This document shows, piece after piece, positions 47,618 to 58,335 of a DNA stretch of 62,820 bases. The position numbers and the translations under genes are program-made. The notes beneath the pieces were generated by a model, which saw only the letters and a program-made list of their open reading frames with translations, was not told the origin of the DNA and did not search any database. The DNA is from an uncultured virus (IMG/VR IMGVR_UViG_3300005549_000008) (lineage: Duplodnaviria; Heunggongvirae; Uroviricota; Caudoviricetes), in the IMG/VR virus record IMGVR_UViG_3300005549_000008, one strand, 5' to 3'. How positions within the stretch are numbered: position 1 is the stretch's first letter; every line of letters starts with the position of its first letter.

Positions 47618-48547
47618 TCAGAGCCCCTCGAGCTGTTTACGAAGGTCGTCGATGAGCCGATCCTTCTTGCGGGCCTCGGACTCGAGTTGGTTAGCCAGGG
47701 ACTGGCCCCGCGATTGCATCTCGATGAACCGATCCAGGATGCTGGTGAGCTGCGCGCGCCGCTCGTCCTTCAGAGCCTGCAGCAAGTCGTCGAGTGACGT
47801 GCGTAGCGCCGCAACGGACTGGAGCTCCTCCGTAAGCGACCGGGCGAGCCCATCCAGGGTTGCAAATTTATCGGTCAGCCTCTGATCCAATCCCGCAAAC
47901 CCCTGCACGACGCCCTGCAGGTGGGTGGCAACCATCGAGAGCTGGCCGGTCAACTCGGTGATTGTGTCCAGAGCCGGATCGGCGGTCGCGCCGGAGTCAG
48001 CGATTGGCTCTCCTTCGGGAAGATCCGCCGGCTCCGTGTACGTGGGATCGTGCGGCCACAGCAGCGCCTTGAGTGCGCGCCCGTCTTCGTAGAGCGCCGC
48101 CAAGGCAACAGTCAGAACACGCTCCTTCTGATCAGCGGTCCGGCAACAGTAGAGCACCGCGTGCGCATCGCGTTCTTCGGTGATCAGTTTCTGCTCGACC
48201 AGTCGGGACACGAATCCAGTAAACCAACTCTTAGACGAGAGCTCCTTCTCTGTAGCCTTGGAAATCTTGGCCGAGATCTCGAATGGTGGATGGAGCATGT
48301 CCCTCCGCGAAAAGACGGACCCAGATTTGGCCAGGTTGAGTAGCGCGGAGATAGCGAGCAAGTACCGGGCCCTGTTACGATCCTGGGCGCTGCGCGTGAG
48401 CTCATTGAGCCTGTCGCGAAGCTCGAGGGGGTCGATGTCTTCAGGAAAACTCATTCTGGGATGCTCTACGTGACCGGACCAGGGAAGCTTCCCCTGGTTG
48501 AGGAGGTTGACATCAGATTGATACCAAAGTAGCGTCCGAAGCCGCAA
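47618..48547 (-). CDS. Hypothetical protein, wHTH-like plus coiled coil (start uncertain)
   Basis: FVSRLVEQKLITE; C-terminal heptads. Confidence 0.6.
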   Translation of the reverse strand: MRLRTLLWYQSDVNLLNQGKLPWSGHVEHPRMSFPEDIDPLELRDRLNELTRSAQDRNRARYLLAISALLNLAKSGSVFSRRDMLHPPFEISAKISKATEKELSSKSWFTGFVSRLVEQKLITEERDAHAVLYCCRTADQKERVLTVALAALYEDGRALKALLWPHDPTYTEPADLPEGEPIADSGATADPALDTITELTGQLSMVATHLQGVVQGFAGLDQRLTDKFATLDGLARSLTEELQSVAALRTSLDDLLQALKDERRAQLTSILDRFIEMQSRGQSLANQLESEARKKDRLIDDLRKQLEGL

Positions 48548-48706
48548 CCCCGAAACCGAAGGAAGATGGTGGCGGCGTCCGCCGTAGGACGACGCGACGA
48601 CACAAAATGGACTAGGTCACCTTCACGAGCTACCCCCGGCAGCGTCAGACGCTCCATGGCTCCCCCCCCGGTCATGAAGCAGCGAAAGCGTTACCGGGGG
48701 TAGTTC

Positions 48707-49366
48707 GTGGCGGCGACTGATGGAAGCGACCTGATGGGAAACTGGAAGGAGGAGTTATTGCAGCTGGCGCCGATGATGGCACTCGCCGCAGGCGCATGGG
48801 TGGCGCTGGTTGGTTGGTTGGTTGGGTACTTACGGAATCGCCGCGCCGCTCGGGCCCTTCGGCCACAGCAGGAGGACATCACCAATTTCCACCCGTGGAT
48901 GCTGCTGAGTCGGCTTCGGAATAACCGTGAGCCACGGGAGATCCCGGCGGTTCCGGGCTCGGTCGTGCTCGAGGGGACCCTGCTCGGTGACATGCTGGCG
49001 GTGACGGTGGTGAGTATCGGTACCGATCCAATTCAGCTACCGGAACACATGTGGGATCTTGAGGTGGGTGACCGGTGGTACACCGTGAAACTGATGACCG
49101 CGCGTGGGGATCGATTGGACGAGATCGGTGTGGGTGAGCTCGACCGAGATCCAATTCTGGGTTCGCGTCCGGAGCCCGAGTATCGATCAGGGATCTTTGA
49201 CGGGGAGCCACTGACCTCTCCGCCGTACCGAAGTGTTGACAACAGGGGCTCCGCGGCGTCTCGTGTGCTGACCCAGAACACGGCGTTCGTGGTGAGCGGA
49301 GTGACGGACGAGGACGCAGAAAACGTTGTAGCTACCCTGCAACGAGAGTTGAATGGATCCAGATGA
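48707..49366 (+). CDS. Membrane-anchored hypothetical protein
   Basis: N-terminal TM; first gene of the rightward operon. Confidence 0.6.
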   Translation: MAATDGSDLMGNWKEELLQLAPMMALAAGAWVALVGWLVGYLRNRRAARALRPQQEDITNFHPWMLLSRLRNNREPREIPAVPGSVVLEGTLLGDMLAVTVVSIGTDPIQLPEHMWDLEVGDRWYTVKLMTARGDRLDEIGVGELDRDPILGSRPEPEYRSGIFDGEPLTSPPYRSVDNRGSAASRVLTQNTAFVVSGVTDEDAENVVATLQRELNGSR

Positions 49367-49707
49367 GACTTCTGGTGCGCGTGATGTTCTGGTTGGATGC
49401 GTTGGTGCTCGCTGTCTTGATGCTGGCTCCCGGAACTGTCGCGCCCTGGATGTGGGGCCTCGCGGCGCTGCATCTTGCCGCCGTCGGCTGGATTTGGAGC
49501 AACTGCGGGCTCGACTACCGAGCGGCCTACGAGACCGAGGTGGTGGCGCACCAACAGACGCGCGACTGGATCGAGAGCGAGCTCGTTCAGCGCAAGCTGG
49601 AGGCGGAGGTGATGGCGTATTGTCGCCAGCATCTTCAGTCTCAGGATCGCCGTCCGAGTAGAGAGCCAGCGACGGCGCGAACTTTTGACCTGAAGAAGTT
49701 GAATTGA
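49363..49707 (+). CDS. Two-TM hypothetical protein
   Basis: ATGA overlap; two TM helices then coiled coil. Confidence 0.6.
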   Translation: MRLLVRVMFWLDALVLAVLMLAPGTVAPWMWGLAALHLAAVGWIWSNCGLDYRAAYETEVVAHQQTRDWIESELVQRKLEAEVMAYCRQHLQSQDRRPSREPATARTFDLKKLN

Positions 49708-49741
49708 ATCAGCAAGACGATCGTCTTCTAGGAAAAGACCA

Positions 49742-51388
49742 ATGAGCACCGCCTCAACCCCAGCCGCCCCTCCGTCGCGTACGCGACAAGCAAAGGACAA
49801 GGTCAAAGCCAAGCGAGAGGAGCGCTTGATGCGCGCCGTGCGCGTGGAGCTGGTGAAGCCTCTCGGTGTCGAAACGTGGGATACGATCGGGCCGCTGCTG
49901 CGCACCTATCGATCGATCATGCATCGACTGACCAATGCGGCGGTGCTGGATGCGATCGAGATGGTCAACCGCCAGCGTCGCGGTGAAGTAATCAAGGCGG
50001 CCAAGGAGGTCTCGGCGCCGTACCACGACGGCATCCCCAACCCGCAGACCGCGGCCTACCGAGCGATTCCGGTCGAGCTCGCGAACATTCGTGACTGGTA
50101 CACGCGCGAGCTCGATCGTGTGAAGCGAGGCGGAGAAAAGCGCAAGGGTAAGAAAAAGCAGAAGGTGAGACAGTTAAAGCAGGTGCCGGTGGCGACCACC
50201 GAGGAATCACCGGAGGCGACAGCGCTGCGTGTGCGTGAGCGCGAGATCGCTCGTCTCAGTCTGCTGGCCAATGTAGAGATCCCGGGTGCGGTGCAGGCTA
50301 CCATTTCGCAGTACGCCTGGACGGCTGCAGGTCGCTGGTTGAAGGATCGCAGTTCGCGGATTCCGTCGGCCAAGCTCAATGCGCCGATCCCCATCCGGCG
50401 GGGCGATCCCAGTAACTACGATGCGCAGTTGCAGATGGACGATCAAGGACGACCTCAGCTGCGTCTGAAGCTGCGCGCGATTGGTCACGTGACCTTTGCG
50501 GTACGCGCGGGCCATGGCGCGAACTGGCAGCGTCTGCGTGACATCCTCTCAGGTAAGGGCGGCGCCGAGCAGGGCGACGTGAAGCTTGTGTACGACGACT
50601 CTCAGCGCGGCGAGGACGGGCGACGCCGGGGTAAGTGGTTTGCGATCATTGCGTTCTCGGTACCGAAGCCGGCACCGGCTGACCATCTCGATCCCCGCAA
50701 GGTCTTGGTGCTCCACCGCGGGCACCGGAATCTGCTCGTGGCGATGGGCAGCGACGGGGACTACCGGGTGGTGGCGCGTGGCGGCAAGCTCACCGCGGCG
50801 AAGCGACGGTTCAAGCGCCGCCGGGAAGAGCTGAAGCGCATCTCCCAGGCCGAGCGCGGCCCCGGCGCGACCGGTCACGGGCGGCGTCGGTTCTACGCGC
50901 TCCCAGAGTCTCTGGAGCACAAGGAAGCGGACTTCATCAAGACCTTCTGTCAGCAGCTCGCCGCGCAGGTACGCAAGCTCGTGCTGGAGCTCGGTTACGG
51001 TACGGTCAAGATCGAGGACTACGGCGGCATTGGTCCCGATGATGTGCGCTCGGTGAGAAGGTTTGTTGACCATCCGCCGTATCACCAGCTGCGTGATGCA
51101 ATCAAGAACGCTTTGGAGTCGATTGGTGTTACACTCGGCACCTATCCGCACGAATACATCAGCCAGACCTGTCCGGCGTGCGGCAATCAGGATGCCGGTC
51201 AGCACAACCTGCGCACCGGCATATTTCATTGTCGCCGCTGTGGGCTCGATCGGCTTGCGGACTGGGTGGCGCCCCTGCATGCTCTACGGCGTTCGAATGG
51301 CGGAGTGGCGGGCGCGTGGGAGGACATGATCAAGACCGAGCAGCGGCTCGGTGGTTCTTTGAAAAAAGAAAGGCCCAAACCGGACTGA
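49742..51388 (+). CDS. cas12f: Compact type V CRISPR effector (Cas12f/TnpB family), predicted nuclease-dead
   Basis: N-terminal VRVELVKP, IPS..PIPIR, KWFAIIAF, GHGRRR, RuvC-II GTVKIED, Zn finger SQTCPACG..CRRCG, RuvC-III LAD; RuvC-I reads VLVLHRG; adjacent tracrRNA and array. Confidence 0.88.
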   Translation: MSTASTPAAPPSRTRQAKDKVKAKREERLMRAVRVELVKPLGVETWDTIGPLLRTYRSIMHRLTNAAVLDAIEMVNRQRRGEVIKAAKEVSAPYHDGIPNPQTAAYRAIPVELANIRDWYTRELDRVKRGGEKRKGKKKQKVRQLKQVPVATTEESPEATALRVREREIARLSLLANVEIPGAVQATISQYAWTAAGRWLKDRSSRIPSAKLNAPIPIRRGDPSNYDAQLQMDDQGRPQLRLKLRAIGHVTFAVRAGHGANWQRLRDILSGKGGAEQGDVKLVYDDSQRGEDGRRRGKWFAIIAFSVPKPAPADHLDPRKVLVLHRGHRNLLVAMGSDGDYRVVARGGKLTAAKRRFKRRREELKRISQAERGPGATGHGRRRFYALPESLEHKEADFIKTFCQQLAAQVRKLVLELGYGTVKIEDYGGIGPDDVRSVRRFVDHPPYHQLRDAIKNALESIGVTLGTYPHEYISQTCPACGNQDAGQHNLRTGIFHCRRCGLDRLADWVAPLHALRRSNGGVAGAWEDMIKTEQRLGGSLKKERPKPD

Positions 51389-51566
51389 CCCCCAGAATCC
51401 TGGCAACGAGATGGTACGACGCGGTCGCTCCAAACCGCAAACGCGAGAGGTTAAATCCTGCTCGCGAACCCGTCGGTGCTCGCACCAGCGGGATTCCCGC
51501 TAGATCACTCTAACGGGAGGTCTCCAATCCGCCGTTTCGATGCCAGGTTTCTGGGAGTCAGTTCGG
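51380..51566 (+). repeat. 35-bp imperfect inverted repeat enclosing the tracrRNA
   Basis: 51380-51414 pairs with 51532-51566 (29 Watson-Crick, 3 G-U, 3 mismatches). Confidence 0.8.
51415..51531 (+). ncRNA. Putative tracrRNA
   Basis: Four hairpins; loop GCTCC (51427-31) complements the repeat 3' GGAGC; GGTCTCCAATCC (51519-30) pairs with repeat GGATTGGAGGTC. Confidence 0.8.
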
Positions 51567-51621
51567 GGCGCTCGTAATGTGCGGCGCAAGGTCGCGAGAT
51601 CGTTGGTCTGATAAAGCGCCG

Positions 51622-54138
51622 CTCGCGCCCGATCGCAGAAGGATTGGAGGTTGGAGCTGCTTTTGGAAAGAGGGCGACACCGCCAATGGGGCTCTCGCGC
51701 CCGATCGCAGAAGGATTGGAGGTCGGAGCGACCCCAGCCGGATTTCGGGGATGTGCAGGTAGGCGACTCGCGACCGAGCGTAGAAGGATTGGAGGTCGGA
51801 GCTTCATGAACCAAACCTCCACGCACAGCGTATAGAAGGATTGGAGTTCGGAGCGTTCCTTGCATGATCGTGGTCTTGCGGGTGTGCGAGCTCGCACCAA
51901 AGCGCAGAAGTATTGGAGGTCGGAGCACAGGTCGAGGCCTTAGCGCTCCGCCAGGCGATGATCTCGCGACGTCGCACAAAAAGGATTGGAGGTCGGAGCC
52001 GATAGGCGCGGATGATCGTTCGCTCGTCTACTTGCGCCTCACGACCGAGCGTAGAAGGATTGGAGGTCGGAGGGCACATCACGGCATATGCTTCATCGGC
52101 GTCGAGCACCTCGCGACCGAGCGCAGAAGGATTGGAGGTCGGATCAGCGCCGACTATGCGCGCATTGGACCTGCGCTCCACCGCTCGCGACCCGAGGAGT
52201 AGGAGCGATCATCGGTCACCCGGGGCGGTGCAGAAGTATTGGAGGTCGGAGCAGAATGACTCTCAAGATTGACAGCCAGCCGTTGGCAGCTCGCGACGGA
52301 TCGCAAAAAGGATTGGAGGTTGGAGCGTGACAGCCGCGCGCGAAAAGGATCCCGCGGTCGGGCTCGCGACCGAGCGCAGAAGGATTGGAGGTCCGGAGTA
52401 ACTCGTGGTGCGCTCGATGACGCCAGCTTTGCTCCCTCGCGATACAATATGATTGGAGTCGGAGCGAAGGGAACGACGAGTCGCTGAAGCTTCAGGTATC
52501 GGTGCAGAAAGATTGGAGAGCGGAGCGGTAAGTGCAGGGCTACACCGCTCTGGTGCGGGCCAGAATCGCGAATCGATCGCAGAAAGGATTGGAGGTCGGA
52601 GCTGAGGTCAGAACAGTGTTAAGCGCTACCCGAAACGAACCTCGTGACCGAGTACAAAGGATTGGAGATCGGAGCGACCAGCATGAAAGTCGAATCATCG
52701 GCGTTCGAATGCTCGCGACGGAGCGAATAAGGGATTGGAGTTCGGAGTATATTGCAATGGAAATCACACGCGAGTGCAGAAGTTGTGATCTCACGCAAAC
52801 TGGTGCAAGGATTGGAGGTTCGGAGCAACGAGCAGCGAAGGTCCGCCAGGCATCGGCATTGGCACTCGCAACCGAGCAGAAGGATTGGAGGTCGGAACTC
52901 GAAGTCGTTGCACCGGAACCCGGTAATCTTCGTTGCTCGCTACTCCGCACAAGAAGGATTGGAGGTCGGAGCATGGTGCGCGGCGAGTACACTAACCTCA
53001 TTCGGTCAGCGACCGGCTCGCGCCCGATCGCAGAAGGATTGGAGGTCGGAGCAAGAAATTGGCATGATCCGGAAGGCGGTTGCAGCGGGCTCGCGCTCGA
53101 TCGCAGAAGGATTGGAGGTCGGAGCGACCTAGGGCTCCCGTGGGACCAGGCCGCGGAGGAGCTCGCGCTCGATCGCAGAAGGATTGGAGGTCGGAACGGT
53201 GCGGGATCGATCTTGTGTTGCGCGTGGTGCTGTGCTTCGCGACCGATCGCAGAAAGGATTGGAGTTCGGAGCATGCGGTTGCAGCAAGTCACCGGCGATG
53301 TTGCAAATCTCGCGGCCGATCGCAGAAAGGATTGGAGGTCGGAGCTCCATGCAGGTCCGCAGGTAGTTGCGCGCGGCCTTCAACGCTCGCGACCGAGCGC
53401 AGAAAGGATTGGAGGTCGGAGCGACGGGAATAGTCATACCCTTGAGAACAGCACAAAGCTCGCGACTGAGGCGCAAAAGGATTGGAGTTCGGAGCGGGTT
53501 GAGGCTGGCTACGACGAACGGGACGCAGAAGGATTGGAGGTCGGAACTCGAAGTCGTTGCACCGGAACCCGGTAATATTCGTTGCTCGCGACTCCGCACA
53601 AGAAGGATTGGAGGTCGGAGCGAACTCACAAACCAAGTGCAGAAGGACTGGAGGTCGGAGTTTGTTCAAGCCCATGGCCTAGGCGACGTGCAAGAGCGGC
53701 CGCGCAGCTCGCGATGGGAGAGTAGAAAGGATTGGAGGTCGGAGCGGCTCCTCCTGGGTGTACGTATCGTGTCGGACTCACTCGCGACGGAGCGCAAAAG
53801 GATTGGAGTTCGGAGCTAAGTGGCTCCTTGGCAGGGCTCCCGGCGAGCTCTGCCTCGCGACCGGGCGCTCAAGGGATTGGAGGTAGGAGTGTTGCCATGG
53901 GACTCATCGCATAAGGATTGGAGGCCGGAGCGTTGAGGTCGACGAATCCAGCACGGATGACGACGGCTCGCGACGGATCGCAAATGGAATCGCCGATTGA
54001 GAGCGAAAGGACTGGAAAGCGGAGCATGGTCGAGGCCGTGTTGTTAGGGTGACGATCTTTGAAAGGATTGGAGGTCGGAACAGGCAGCTACGTCAGCTCG
54101 TTTGCTGGCGCGCATGAAAAAGTATTGGAGAGCGGAGC
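51622..54138 (+). CRISPR. Degenerate CRISPR array, about 37 repeats, consensus CTCGCGACCGA(T/G)CGCAGAAGGATTGGAGGTCGGAGC (36 nt), spacers mostly about 36-38 nt
   Basis: About 72-nt period with a recurrent GGATTGGAGGTCGGAGC core and unique intervening sequences. Confidence 0.93.
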
Positions 54139-54165
54139 GCAATGAGTACCAGGAAGGAAAAAACC

Positions 54166-54756
54166 ATGAAGATCAAATCATTCGAAGGTATTGTGCAACA
54201 CTGTCGAAATCTGCGTGTCGAGTTCGAGCGCGACGAGGCCAGGTTCTTCCTGGGTCTCTGGCACACCGAACAGCAGTATATGGAGTTCTTGCGTACCAAC
54301 GGATACGATGTATTTGCGCGTTTCCTGACAAACCATGATCTCTGTGATCCAGCTCGCTACGCGACATTCGCAGCTGGTTTGAAGCACCTGGACTCTCCGA
54401 ATGATGCGCTCAAGATCGGGGCCAAGTCGGTGATGGCGCTCTCGGCAGTGCACGACTCGCGCAACGTGCCAGAGTTCATCACGGCAGTTACGTCGTTCGC
54501 GGATCAGCACGGCGGTACGCTGCCGAGCCACCAGAAGGCTCGGCAGTTGTTGCGCCAGGTGGATCCCAGGAAGGAAACGCCGCGCGCGGTATCACAGGCG
54601 AACGAGAACGCCCGGCTGCGAGCAGAGCTGCAGCAGGTCAAGACGGAGCTACGCGCCAAGGAGGCGGAACTGAAGACTTGGAAAGTCCGTGCTGAGAAGG
54701 CAGAGAAAGCGCTCGGACGCCTCAAGGACTCGCGTGTCGTTGCGCGTCCTGATTGA
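54166..54756 (+). CDS. Hypothetical protein with C-terminal coiled coil, directly after the array
   Basis: AGGAAGGA RBS before ATG 54166. Confidence 0.7.
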   Translation: MKIKSFEGIVQHCRNLRVEFERDEARFFLGLWHTEQQYMEFLRTNGYDVFARFLTNHDLCDPARYATFAAGLKHLDSPNDALKIGAKSVMALSAVHDSRNVPEFITAVTSFADQHGGTLPSHQKARQLLRQVDPRKETPRAVSQANENARLRAELQQVKTELRAKEAELKTWKVRAEKAEKALGRLKDSRVVARPD

Positions 54757-54781
54757 CATCAGAATGATACCACTGTAGACG
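54753..54781 (+). promoter_or_regulatory. Sigma70-like promoter
   Basis: TTGACA-N17-TAGACG, 8 nt before ATG 54790. Confidence 0.45.
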
Positions 54782-56605: not shown

Positions 56606-58335
56606 AGACCTACGGCACCGTGCGCTACAACAAGAAGGAGAAGCTGTGGCTGGTCGCTGCCGAGCCACACGTACTGATCAAGCTCTGTCGGTTGTTCCCG
56701 CGTACGCACCATGCTGGCAATGTCGACCAGGATGAGATCTTCGGCACCTACGAGCTCGGTGATACTTTGGAAATCTGTCGGGATCTGGAGTGGTTTCTGC
56801 TCCGCTACCCCATGCTGTTTCAGCCCCCGGCACTGAAGAAACAGCTACGGATTCGCGCCGCGGCGCAGGTCGAGCAGCAGGCCACCATCGCCGAACTCCT
56901 GGCGGGCATTCGTTTACCGGAAGGCGTCGAGCTCGCTGTACCGCTGCGTGAGTACCAGCGCCTCGCGGTGGGCCTGTGGTTCGAGATGAAGGGGCTACTC
57001 CTGGCTGATCAGATGGGGCTCGGCAAGACGGCAGCCGCTATCGGAGGCCTCGCCGACACCCGCACGTTGCCGGCACTGGTCGTGACGCTGGCGCACCTAC
57101 CCGAGCAGTGGGAGGCCGAGATCGGTCGATTCGCTCCGGCTCTGACCACCCATATTCTCAAGACGGGCAAGCCCTACGAGCTGCGCCAGGCGCGGCGCGA
57201 CAGGGAGCCGACATTTCCTGACGTGATCATTTCCAACTACCACAAGCTCGCGGGCTGGGCGCCCTACCTCATGCCGCTAGTCAAGTCGGTGGTGTTCGAT
57301 GAAATCCAGGAGCTCCGCCGCGGCACTCAAAGCGCGAAAGGCGAAGCAGCGTACGCCATCGCGCACCACGCGGAGTATAGGCTGGGGCTTTCCGGAACCC
57401 CTATCTACAATTACGGCGGCGAGATGTACAACGTGGTGCAGGCGCTGCGTCCCGACGCGCTGGGCTCGCACGAGGAGTACCTGAAGGAGTGGTGCCAGTC
57501 GGTGGACTACCGAGGCAACTCCCGGATCAAAAACCCCGCTGCGTTCGGCACATACCTACGCGATCAGGGCATCATGCTGCGCCGCACCCGCGCGGACGTG
57601 GGGCGCGAGCTGCCGCCGCTCACTCGTAACGTTCAACACATCGACTCCGATCTCGATCATCTGAGTAAGGTCGAGACTACGGCTACCGAGCTCGCGCGCA
57701 TCATCCTGTCCGATAACCCTCTGGGTCGAGGTGACAAGTTCCGCGCCGCCGAGGAACTTTCCATTCTGCTGCGTCAGGCCACCGGGATCGCCAAGGCGCC
57801 TTACGTGGCGGAGTTCGTGAAGTTGATTGCCGAGACCGAGCCCAAAATCGTCCTGTACGGGTGGCATCGCGAGGTCTACGAGCTCTGGCTGGAGCAGTTG
57901 AAGGAGCTCGCGCCGGTGATGTTCACTGGCAGCGAGAGTCCCAAGCAGAAGCGCGCGAGTAAGCAGGCGTTCTGTGAGGGCGACGCCAAGGTGATGATCA
58001 TCTCACTCCGTGCCGGCGCCGGGCTCGATGGGCTGCAAGAGCGCTGCCAGACAGTGATCTTTGGGGAGCTCGACTGGAGTCCCGGTGTGCACGAGCAGTG
58101 TGAGTGTCGCATATTTCGCGACGGGCAGAAGCAGCCGGTGTTCGCGTACTATCTGGTGACCGACAGTGGTAGCGATCCGGTGGTGGCGGACGTGCTCGGG
58201 TTGAAGAAAGTGCAGTCTGAAGGTGTGATGAATCCGCAACAGGAACTGCTCGAGAAACTCGAAACCGATCCGCAGCACATCAAGCGGCTAGCGGAGTCGT
58301 ACCTAAGTAAGGTGCGGGAAAGGTCGGTAGCATGA
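56602..58335 (+). CDS. SNF2-family helicase
   Basis: LLADQMGLGKT, VFDEIQ, LSGTPIYN, GAGLDGLQ, WSPGVHEQCECRIFRDGQ. Confidence 0.93.
   Translation: MKTYGTVRYNKKEKLWLVAAEPHVLIKLCRLFPRTHHAGNVDQDEIFGTYELGDTLEICRDLEWFLLRYPMLFQPPALKKQLRIRAAAQVEQQATIAELLAGIRLPEGVELAVPLREYQRLAVGLWFEMKGLLLADQMGLGKTAAAIGGLADTRTLPALVVTLAHLPEQWEAEIGRFAPALTTHILKTGKPYELRQARRDREPTFPDVIISNYHKLAGWAPYLMPLVKSVVFDEIQELRRGTQSAKGEAAYAIAHHAEYRLGLSGTPIYNYGGEMYNVVQALRPDALGSHEEYLKEWCQSVDYRGNSRIKNPAAFGTYLRDQGIMLRRTRADVGRELPPLTRNVQHIDSDLDHLSKVETTATELARIILSDNPLGRGDKFRAAEELSILLRQATGIAKAPYVAEFVKLIAETEPKIVLYGWHREVYELWLEQLKELAPVMFTGSESPKQKRASKQAFCEGDAKVMIISLRAGAGLDGLQERCQTVIFGELDWSPGVHEQCECRIFRDGQKQPVFAYYLVTDSGSDPVVADVLGLKKVQSEGVMNPQQELLEKLETDPQHIKRLAESYLSKVRERSVA

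What the first reader, a model, noticed from the sequence alone, without database searches (positions are those of the whole stretch)
51380..51566. 35-bp processing-type stem brackets the tracrRNA
Seen: 51380-51414 (overlapping the effector stop codon) and 51532-51566 form a 35-bp duplex with G-U pairs that exactly encloses the 117-nt tracr core. The G-U pairs suggest selection at RNA level. Inference: effector mRNA, tracrRNA and pre-crRNA are one transcript and the tracrRNA is excised by RNase III, as in rRNA processing stems; no separate tracr promoter is evident.
Basis: partly seen in the sequence, partly recalled or inferred. Interest (0 to 1): 0.7.

Follow-up and report, generated by a model that had tools for sequence, protein, structure and literature searches.

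The report
Phage tracrRNA closed by long stem
In a group of phage CRISPR systems whose Cas12f-like protein appears to lack its cutting residue, the helper RNA is folded shut by a long double-stranded stem that probably lets a host enzyme cut it out of the surrounding messenger RNA, which has not yet been tested.

Summary
The stem is real: 29 Watson-Crick, 3 G-U and 3 mismatched positions over 35, the best such duplex in the window. It closes a tracrRNA behind a Cas12f1-like gene whose first RuvC aspartate is histidine, ahead of a 36-repeat array. Of 27 non-redundant related loci, 18 have a tracrRNA closed by a 24-36 bp stem, 3 have a core without it, and 6 show no tracrRNA. The arms diverge but covary; G-U outnumbers A-C 41:10, so selection acts on the transcribed strand. 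The stem starts within 10 nt of an upstream stop codon in 15 of 16 loci, behind two different genes. In two or three loci the tracrRNA lies in frame inside the effector ORF. Anti-repeats are short (8-14 nt), so the long repeat:anti-repeat duplex is missing and this intramolecular stem takes its place. Excision from a polycistronic RNA is well supported by context. RNase III is likely but unproven: E. coli-type boxes are not enriched, no RNA data were listed, and SpCas12f1 keeps a 'head-to-toe' stem as structure. New variant of a known kind.

The parts
49742..51388 (+). Cas12f1-like (V-U3) effector, 548 aa (519 aa from the later ATG at 49829); RuvC triad H325-E425-D507, predicted nuclease-dead
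   Evidence: PADLOC Cas12u3 6e-26; best PDB sequence hit SpCas12f1 9i8y; Foldseek top hits AsCas12f; H325 invariant in 34 of 34
51380..51414 (+). 5' arm of the closing (head-to-toe) stem; overlaps the effector stop codon
51415..51531 (+). tracrRNA core, 117 nt: stem 1 (51421-51438), stem 2 (51442-51466), stems 3 and 4 (51469-51492, 51495-51518)
   Evidence: covariance model finds two loci it was not built from; stem 1 covaries
51427..51431 (+). anti-repeat 1, in the loop of stem 1; pairs with the last 5 nt of the repeat (pseudoknot, inferred from Cas12f1 structures)
   Evidence: compensatory changes in L013, L018, L024, L028
51519..51530 (+). anti-repeat 2, 12 nt, pairs with repeat positions 20-31 only and abuts the closing stem
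51532..51566 (+). 3' arm of the closing stem; no U-tract follows
51567..51621 (+). leader-like stretch between stem and first repeat
   Evidence: similar stretch precedes arrays in related loci, including L003 where the tracrRNA is elsewhere; role inferred
51622..54138 (+). CRISPR array, 36 repeats of about 36 nt; 3' half conserved, 5' half degenerate or missing
54142..54756 (+). conserved accessory gene, about 200 aa, no Pfam or PHROG family; loose likeness to DUF3102 clusters
   Evidence: tblastn hits in 14 of 28 locus records tested

Best explanation
The stem is a conserved intramolecular head-to-toe duplex of the tracrRNA precursor in a phage-borne clade of probably nuclease-dead Cas12f1. 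The tracrRNA is made by read-through from the gene in front of it, or from within the effector ORF (inferred from layout). Its anti-repeats grip only the 3' half of the repeat (shown by covariation), so the long repeat:anti-repeat duplex that other tracrRNA systems offer to RNase III is absent. The roughly three-turn stem supplies such a duplex in cis. Host RNase III cuts both arms and frees a tracrRNA with a short terminal stem (inferred, not shown). Effector, tracrRNA and crRNA then bind DNA without cutting it (inferred from H-E-D).
For: 18 of 27 non-redundant loci carry the stem; lengths 24-36 bp. Each of 16 left arms pairs better with its own right arm than with any of the other 15. 16 of 18 aligned stem pairs show changes on both sides; 0 of 500 shuffles reach the score; slid controls fall to 36-45% paired. 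G-U 41 against A-C 10 in Watson-Crick-only alignments. Stem begins -9 to +10 nt from an upstream stop in 15 of 16 loci, behind the effector in 8 and behind a ~200-codon gene in 6. In L020 and L001 tracrRNA and stem lie in frame 7 and 6 nt after the effector start codon; database proteins P0056 and P0044 carry the same extensions. 8 of 178 proteins have a C-terminal tail that reads like translated tracrRNA stems 1-2. One record carries three copies that share only about 10 nt upstream of the stem. Stemless L006 has a 35-nt anti-repeat spanning repeat positions 2-36. RNase III needs 11 bp at least, 22 bp for a full site (PMC1540722, PMC3867540) and cuts long-range intramolecular stems in vivo (bioRxiv 10.1101/2023.03.12.532304). 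TnpB frees its RNA from its own mRNA with RuvC (PMC10278001), a route that H-E-D probably closes.
Against: E. coli RNase III boxes are not enriched (62 against 67.2). No RNA ends were seen. The host and its RNase III are not identified. SpCas12f1 has a head-to-toe stem treated as part of the RNA and dispensable for cleavage (PMC12255294). Cas12m processes pre-crRNA without RuvC (PMC11013384), so a dead RuvC does not exclude self-processing. The long-anti-repeat contrast rests on one lineage: L006 and L152 are sisters, L152 gives only 8 nt in the ungapped test, and L128 has neither feature. Loci are related, so counts are not independent. A terminator-like hairpin lies at 51335-51352, 28 nt ahead of the stem (8 found against 3.6 expected). 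DNA for the C-terminal-tail group was not found.
Confidence: 0.6

Rival explanations
1. The stem stays in the mature tracrRNA as a terminal, protective or protein-bound helix, a long form of the SpCas12f1 head-to-toe stem. The RNA is still cut from a longer transcript, but by single-strand nucleases with trimming up to the stem, or by a RuvC-independent RNase site of the effector or accessory protein.
For: Head-to-toe precedent in the closest solved homolog (PMC12255294). RNase III boxes slightly depleted. A single U.U mismatch recurs 13-19 bp from the core in 10 of 16 stems, which could be a protein-binding mark.
Against: About 31 bp is far more than closing needs, yet the length is kept while sequence drifts. 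Truncating the SpCas12f1 stem kept activity (PMC12255294). A near-perfect 30-bp helix is within the range RNase III cuts (PMC3867540). The U.U box could equally be an RNase III distal box.
Confidence: 0.27
2. The tracrRNA has its own promoter inside the upstream coding sequence and the stem only stabilises or terminates a primary transcript.
For: A sigma-70 scan cannot see phage or alternative-sigma promoters; a weak terminator-like hairpin precedes the stem in the window.
Against: The same cassette sits behind two unrelated genes and right after a start codon; duplicated copies carry about 10 nt of upstream flank; no U-tract follows the stem in the window.
Confidence: 0.08
3. The arms are DNA-level inverted repeats (cruciform, or single-stranded DNA hairpin) that move the tracrRNA cassette.
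For: The cassette occupies several positions relative to the effector and is present three times in one record. G-T over A-C also fits single-stranded DNA.
Against: The duplicated unit extends past the 3' arm into leader and repeat; arms have no conserved end motif; the stem joins exactly at anti-repeat 2, an RNA-functional site.
Confidence: 0.05

Closest known systems
CRISPR-Cas12f1 (type V-F1 / V-U3: SpCas12f1, AsCas12f1)
   Same: Fold and sequence; no adaptation genes found near the locus; tracrRNA between gene and array with stem 1 pseudoknot and stems 2-4; SpCas12f1 tracrRNA has a head-to-toe stem (PMC12255294).
   Different: RuvC-I is His; anti-repeat covers only the 3' half of the repeat; closing stem is 24-36 bp and family-wide; tracrRNA position is mobile and can lie inside the effector ORF; phage-borne; conserved accessory gene. 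The length of the SpCas12f1 stem could not be read from the text held.
Cas12m (V-M)
   Same: His at RuvC-I; binds DNA without cutting (PMC11013384).
   Different: Cas12m has no tracrRNA and processes its own pre-crRNA; it ranks below Cas12f in sequence and fold searches.
dCas12f-sigmaE of Bacteroidetes
   Same: Nuclease-dead Cas12f derivative (PMC13472631).
   Different: That system uses fused single guides, no tracrRNA, and a sigma factor; none is seen here.
TnpB omega-RNA biogenesis
   Same: Guide scaffold cut out of the effector's own mRNA (PMC10278001).
   Different: TnpB uses its RuvC site and cuts the 5' side only; here both ends must be made and RuvC looks dead.
RNase III processing stems of pre-rRNA and mRNA
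   Same: Long-range intramolecular helix bracketing a structured RNA (PMC3074117; bioRxiv 10.1101/2023.03.12.532304).
   Different: E. coli box sequences are not enriched here; cleavage untested.

Membership tests
Cas12f1 (V-F1/V-U3) | 400-700 aa TnpB-like effector with Cas12f1 fold and C4 zinc finger | tested here: met
   below the NCBIfam cut-offs for TnpB and Cas12f2
Cas12f1 (V-F1/V-U3) | CRISPR array with spacer turnover | tested here: met
   36 repeats; near-identical locus L008 has different leader-side spacers and shares two or three older ones
Cas12f1 (V-F1/V-U3) | tracrRNA with two anti-repeats | tested here: met
Cas12f1 (V-F1/V-U3) | Intact D-E-D RuvC site | tested here: not met
   H-E-D here; H-E-D in 91 and D-E-D in 2 of 178 proteins
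Cas12f1 (V-F1/V-U3) | Long repeat:anti-repeat duplex reaching the 5' half of the repeat | tested here: not met
   no pairing to repeat positions 1-16 in 16 of 16 stem-bearing loci tested; L017 and L023 left out for lack of a full repeat
Cas12f1 (V-F1/V-U3) | Asymmetric homodimer on one guide; PAM-dependent DNA binding | not tested
   two full copies exceed the size limit of the complex tool; needs experiment
Cas12m (V-M) | crRNA only, no tracrRNA | tested here: not met
   tracrRNA present
RNase III processing stem | Helix of at least 22 bp bracketing the product | tested here: met
   24-36 bp in 18 loci
RNase III processing stem | Permissive proximal and distal box sequences (E. coli rules) | tested here: inconclusive
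   no enrichment, 62 against 67.2; boxes are degenerate and differ between species (PMC3867540, PMC5371410)
RNase III processing stem | RNase III-dependent paired cuts with 2-nt 3' overhang | not testable with these tools
   no RNA holder listed

The most novel reading that the evidence does not exclude
A phage clade of DNA-binding, non-cutting Cas12f has turned its tracrRNA into a promoterless, portable cassette that carries its own RNase III substrate. It can sit behind any gene or inside the effector ORF. In the embedded forms each transcript is either translated (ribosomes melt the stem) or cut into tracrRNA (destroying the message), which would balance protein against scaffold RNA automatically.
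Probability: 0.35. Interest if true: 0.8.

Novelty: new variant of a known kind. Interest (0 to 1): 0.66.

Why it matters
It offers a concrete, testable route for tracrRNA maturation that does not need the repeat, and it shows the repeat:anti-repeat duplex being exchanged for an intramolecular one, a step that bears on how omega-RNAs and split guides interconvert. It also exposes a sizeable phage family of probably nuclease-dead Cas12f (78 representatives at E<=1e-30) with live arrays, a conserved accessory gene and a tracrRNA that can overlap the ORF at either end. A promoterless self-releasing scaffold and a compact natural dCas12f could be useful for single-transcript CRISPR interference.

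Tried and rejected
Rfam: no match in the window. No tRNA. No whole genome held. RNA runs: no RNA holder listed. Single-protein scan of viral contigs found no relative; the genome collection gave one weak unrelated hit. Motif scans of viral contigs: searches returned 7, 22 and 83 stretches (80 fetched); apart from records already held and one more copy of the L002 cassette (L032), only L128 belonged to the family. No DNA for the C-terminal-tail group. Array against 50,697 phage records: no match. 204 spacers from 17 arrays against 261 kb of related DNA: no full match; best 26/29, 23/26 and 18/19, so targets and PAM remain unknown. RNase III box test: no enrichment. A cut register guessed from a recalled E. 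coli consensus was dropped because it puts a C-G pair at proximal box position 2, which blocks E. coli RNase III (PMC1540722). Co-folding tracrRNA with the repeat failed for the full RNA because the program forbids the crossing pairs; the core alone pairs as expected. Intrinsic terminator rejected for the stem itself: no U-tract. No complex prediction was sent. Earlier findings: none returned. Supplement search of PMC12255294 gave nothing on the stem.

Full report
Observation. The arms 51380-51414 and 51532-51566 pair without gaps: 29 Watson-Crick, 3 G-U and 3 single mismatches, enclosing 117 nt. It is the best 35-mer duplex in the window, beats six shuffled 20-kb pieces (23-24 against 29 Watson-Crick pairs) and gives z -7.65. 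The 5' arm overlaps the stop codon of a 548-aa ORF.

The locus. The ORF is Cas12f1-like by profile (Cas12u3), by sequence (SpCas12f1 and AsCas12f1) and by fold (AsCas12f on top). The first RuvC aspartate is histidine in 34 of 34 aligned homologs; among 178 proteins 91 read H-E-D and 2 read D-E-D. Loss of cutting is inferred; Cas12m with H-D-D does not cut (PMC11013384, passages). A 36-repeat array follows, then a ~200-aa gene found in 14 of 28 locus records tested. The contig is 130,572 bases, the window holds DnaB, a sliding clamp and several PHROG matches, and relatives lie on viral contigs: a phage, host unknown. None of the proteins scanned (28 against Pfam, 53 against PHROGs, not every ORF) matched Cas1, Cas2 or RNase III.

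The core is a tracrRNA. The loop of stem 1 pairs with the last 4-7 nt of the repeat and a second segment with repeat positions about 20-33; both change with the repeat across loci. This matches the stem 1, pseudoknot, stems 2-4 plan described for Cas12f1 (PMC12255294, passages).

The stem is family-wide. After merging duplicates (L008 with the window, L011, L016, L019, L022) and dropping one unrelated hit (L030), 27 loci with the effector were examined. 18 have a tracrRNA closed by a long stem. 3 (L006, L128, L152) have a core without it. 6 show no tracrRNA; five of these are contigs of 1.1-2.5 kb and L014 has 270 nt upstream. For 16 loci the stems are 24-36 bp, z -3.4 to -8.3 against shuffled arms, and each left arm prefers its own right arm over the other 15. 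A covariance model built from 15 of them found L020 and L001, not in its training set, with 35- and 36-nt arms. In the 15-row alignment 16 of 18 stem pairs change on both sides, with 0 of 500 shuffles and no slid register coming close; relatedness inflates such scores. G-U outnumbers A-C 41 to 10 in strict ungapped alignments scored on Watson-Crick pairs only, and 53 to 25 in looser ones. Selection therefore acts on the transcribed strand as a single strand.

Co-transcription. In 15 of 16 loci the stem starts -9 to +10 nt from an upstream stop codon: behind the effector in 8, behind a ~200-codon gene in 6 (accessory homolog detected in 5 of these), behind another ORF in L002. The sixteenth, L007, and the held-out L020 and L001 have the tracrRNA in frame inside the 5' end of the effector ORF. 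L020 and L001 have a Shine-Dalgarno sequence and start codon 7 and 6 nt before the stem; in L020 no other standard start precedes the conserved domain. L007 lacks a clear Shine-Dalgarno sequence and is less secure. Eight of 178 proteins end in a tail that reads like translated stems 1-2; their DNA was not found. One complete record carries three copies sharing about 10 nt of upstream flank. In L003 the tracrRNA sits between two genes, 700 nt from the array. No sigma-70-type promoter was found in 49300-54300, with 0.9 expected by chance, so that scan is weak.

Why a stem. In 16 of 16 stem-bearing loci tested, nothing pairs with repeat positions 1-16 and the second anti-repeat runs straight into the 3' arm. 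Stemless L006 has a 35-nt anti-repeat instead. This suggests an exchange of the intermolecular duplex for an intramolecular one, but it is one contrast: L006 and L152 are sisters, L152 shows 8 nt ungapped, L128 neither. In the window the unpaired 5' half of the repeat is degenerate (12-23 of 36 per position against 25-36 of 36 for positions 18-36); most other arrays keep it conserved. How pre-crRNA is cut here is unexplained.

RNase III or not. For: length well above the 11-bp minimum and 22-bp full site (PMC1540722, passages and first parts of Results and Discussion; PMC3867540, section 7); RNase III cuts long-range stems in vivo (bioRxiv 10.1101/2023.03.12.532304, passages); tracrRNA-bearing type V systems are predicted to use it (PMC12669027, passages); self-processing by RuvC as in TnpB (PMC10278001, abstract and section 11) looks closed. 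Against: E. coli box scores are not enriched (62 against 67.2 +/- 2.6), although newly mapped E. coli sites fit the consensus poorly too (PMC5371410, one passage) and Aquifex RNase III ignores the distal box (PMC3074117, passages). One U.U mismatch recurs 13-19 bp from the core in 10 of 16 stems next to an invariant U; it may be a recognition mark or shared ancestry. SpCas12f1 has a head-to-toe stem, unresolved in the structure and dispensable for cleavage (PMC12255294; PMC11641405, passage); the original paper (Wang 2022) was not read. I put RNase III excision at 0.6 and a retained terminal stem at 0.27.

What is in print. Nine searches returned no description of this H-E-D phage clade, of a tracrRNA inside a Cas12 ORF, or of an intramolecular excision stem. 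Passages of PMC10691335, PMC13472631, PMC7229846 and bioRxiv 10.64898/2026.04.20.719267 describe other systems. The library lacks most subscription papers and I did not read the V-U tables in the supplement of PMC10691335, where the clade may be listed.

Verdict. Observation confirmed and general. Co-transcription is well supported by context; the enzyme is unproven. It works like a Cas12f1 but fails two membership features (RuvC triad, long anti-repeat), so I file it as a new variant of a known kind, interest 0.66.

Noticed in passing
window 51622-54138 and L008 624-1979: Two loci whose proteins are identical over the 129 residues held have different leader-side spacers; shared older spacers occur in a different order, and one spacer is duplicated in the window (52899, 53548). 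Repeats come in blocks of variants, which suggests acquisition with host machinery plus recombination.
   Followed up: partly
window 54142-54756: Accessory gene of unknown family travels with the effector before or after the tracrRNA or array; helical with a C-terminal coiled coil, loose DUF3102 likeness. A candidate partner of the dead nuclease.
   Followed up: partly
L018 11510-11538; L013 10873-10898; window 56661-56679: Partial spacer matches to phage DNA: 26/29 within L018's own contig, 23/26 from L003 to L013, 18/19 from L008 to the window's SNF2 helicase gene. Hints at targeting of related phages; not significant enough for a PAM.
   Followed up: partly
L143, L148, L149 (one 111.6-kb record): Three identical tracrRNA-stem-leader cassettes, two with long arrays and one with a single repeat, but one effector gene in the DNA fetched.
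   Followed up: partly
L152 2671-4566 (KX853510): Virus Rctr197k encodes a distant HRG-type homolog annotated as transposase, with a tracrRNA-like core and array but no closing stem.
   Followed up: partly
L007 5035-5285: tracrRNA core of about 250 nt, twice the usual size, inside a 31-bp stem.
   Followed up: no
window 48507-48532 and 54753-54778: 26-nt direct repeat (88%) beginning TTGACA, flanking the whole effector-array region.
   Followed up: no
window 48616-48717: A second inverted repeat, 29-nt arms at 79%, between divergent gene blocks.
   Followed up: no
P0010-P0015, P0018, P0038, P0055, P0057, P0062: A subgroup has also lost the RuvC-II glutamate (H-G-D in 13 of 178); it includes the forms with the tracrRNA-like C-terminal tail.
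   Followed up: no
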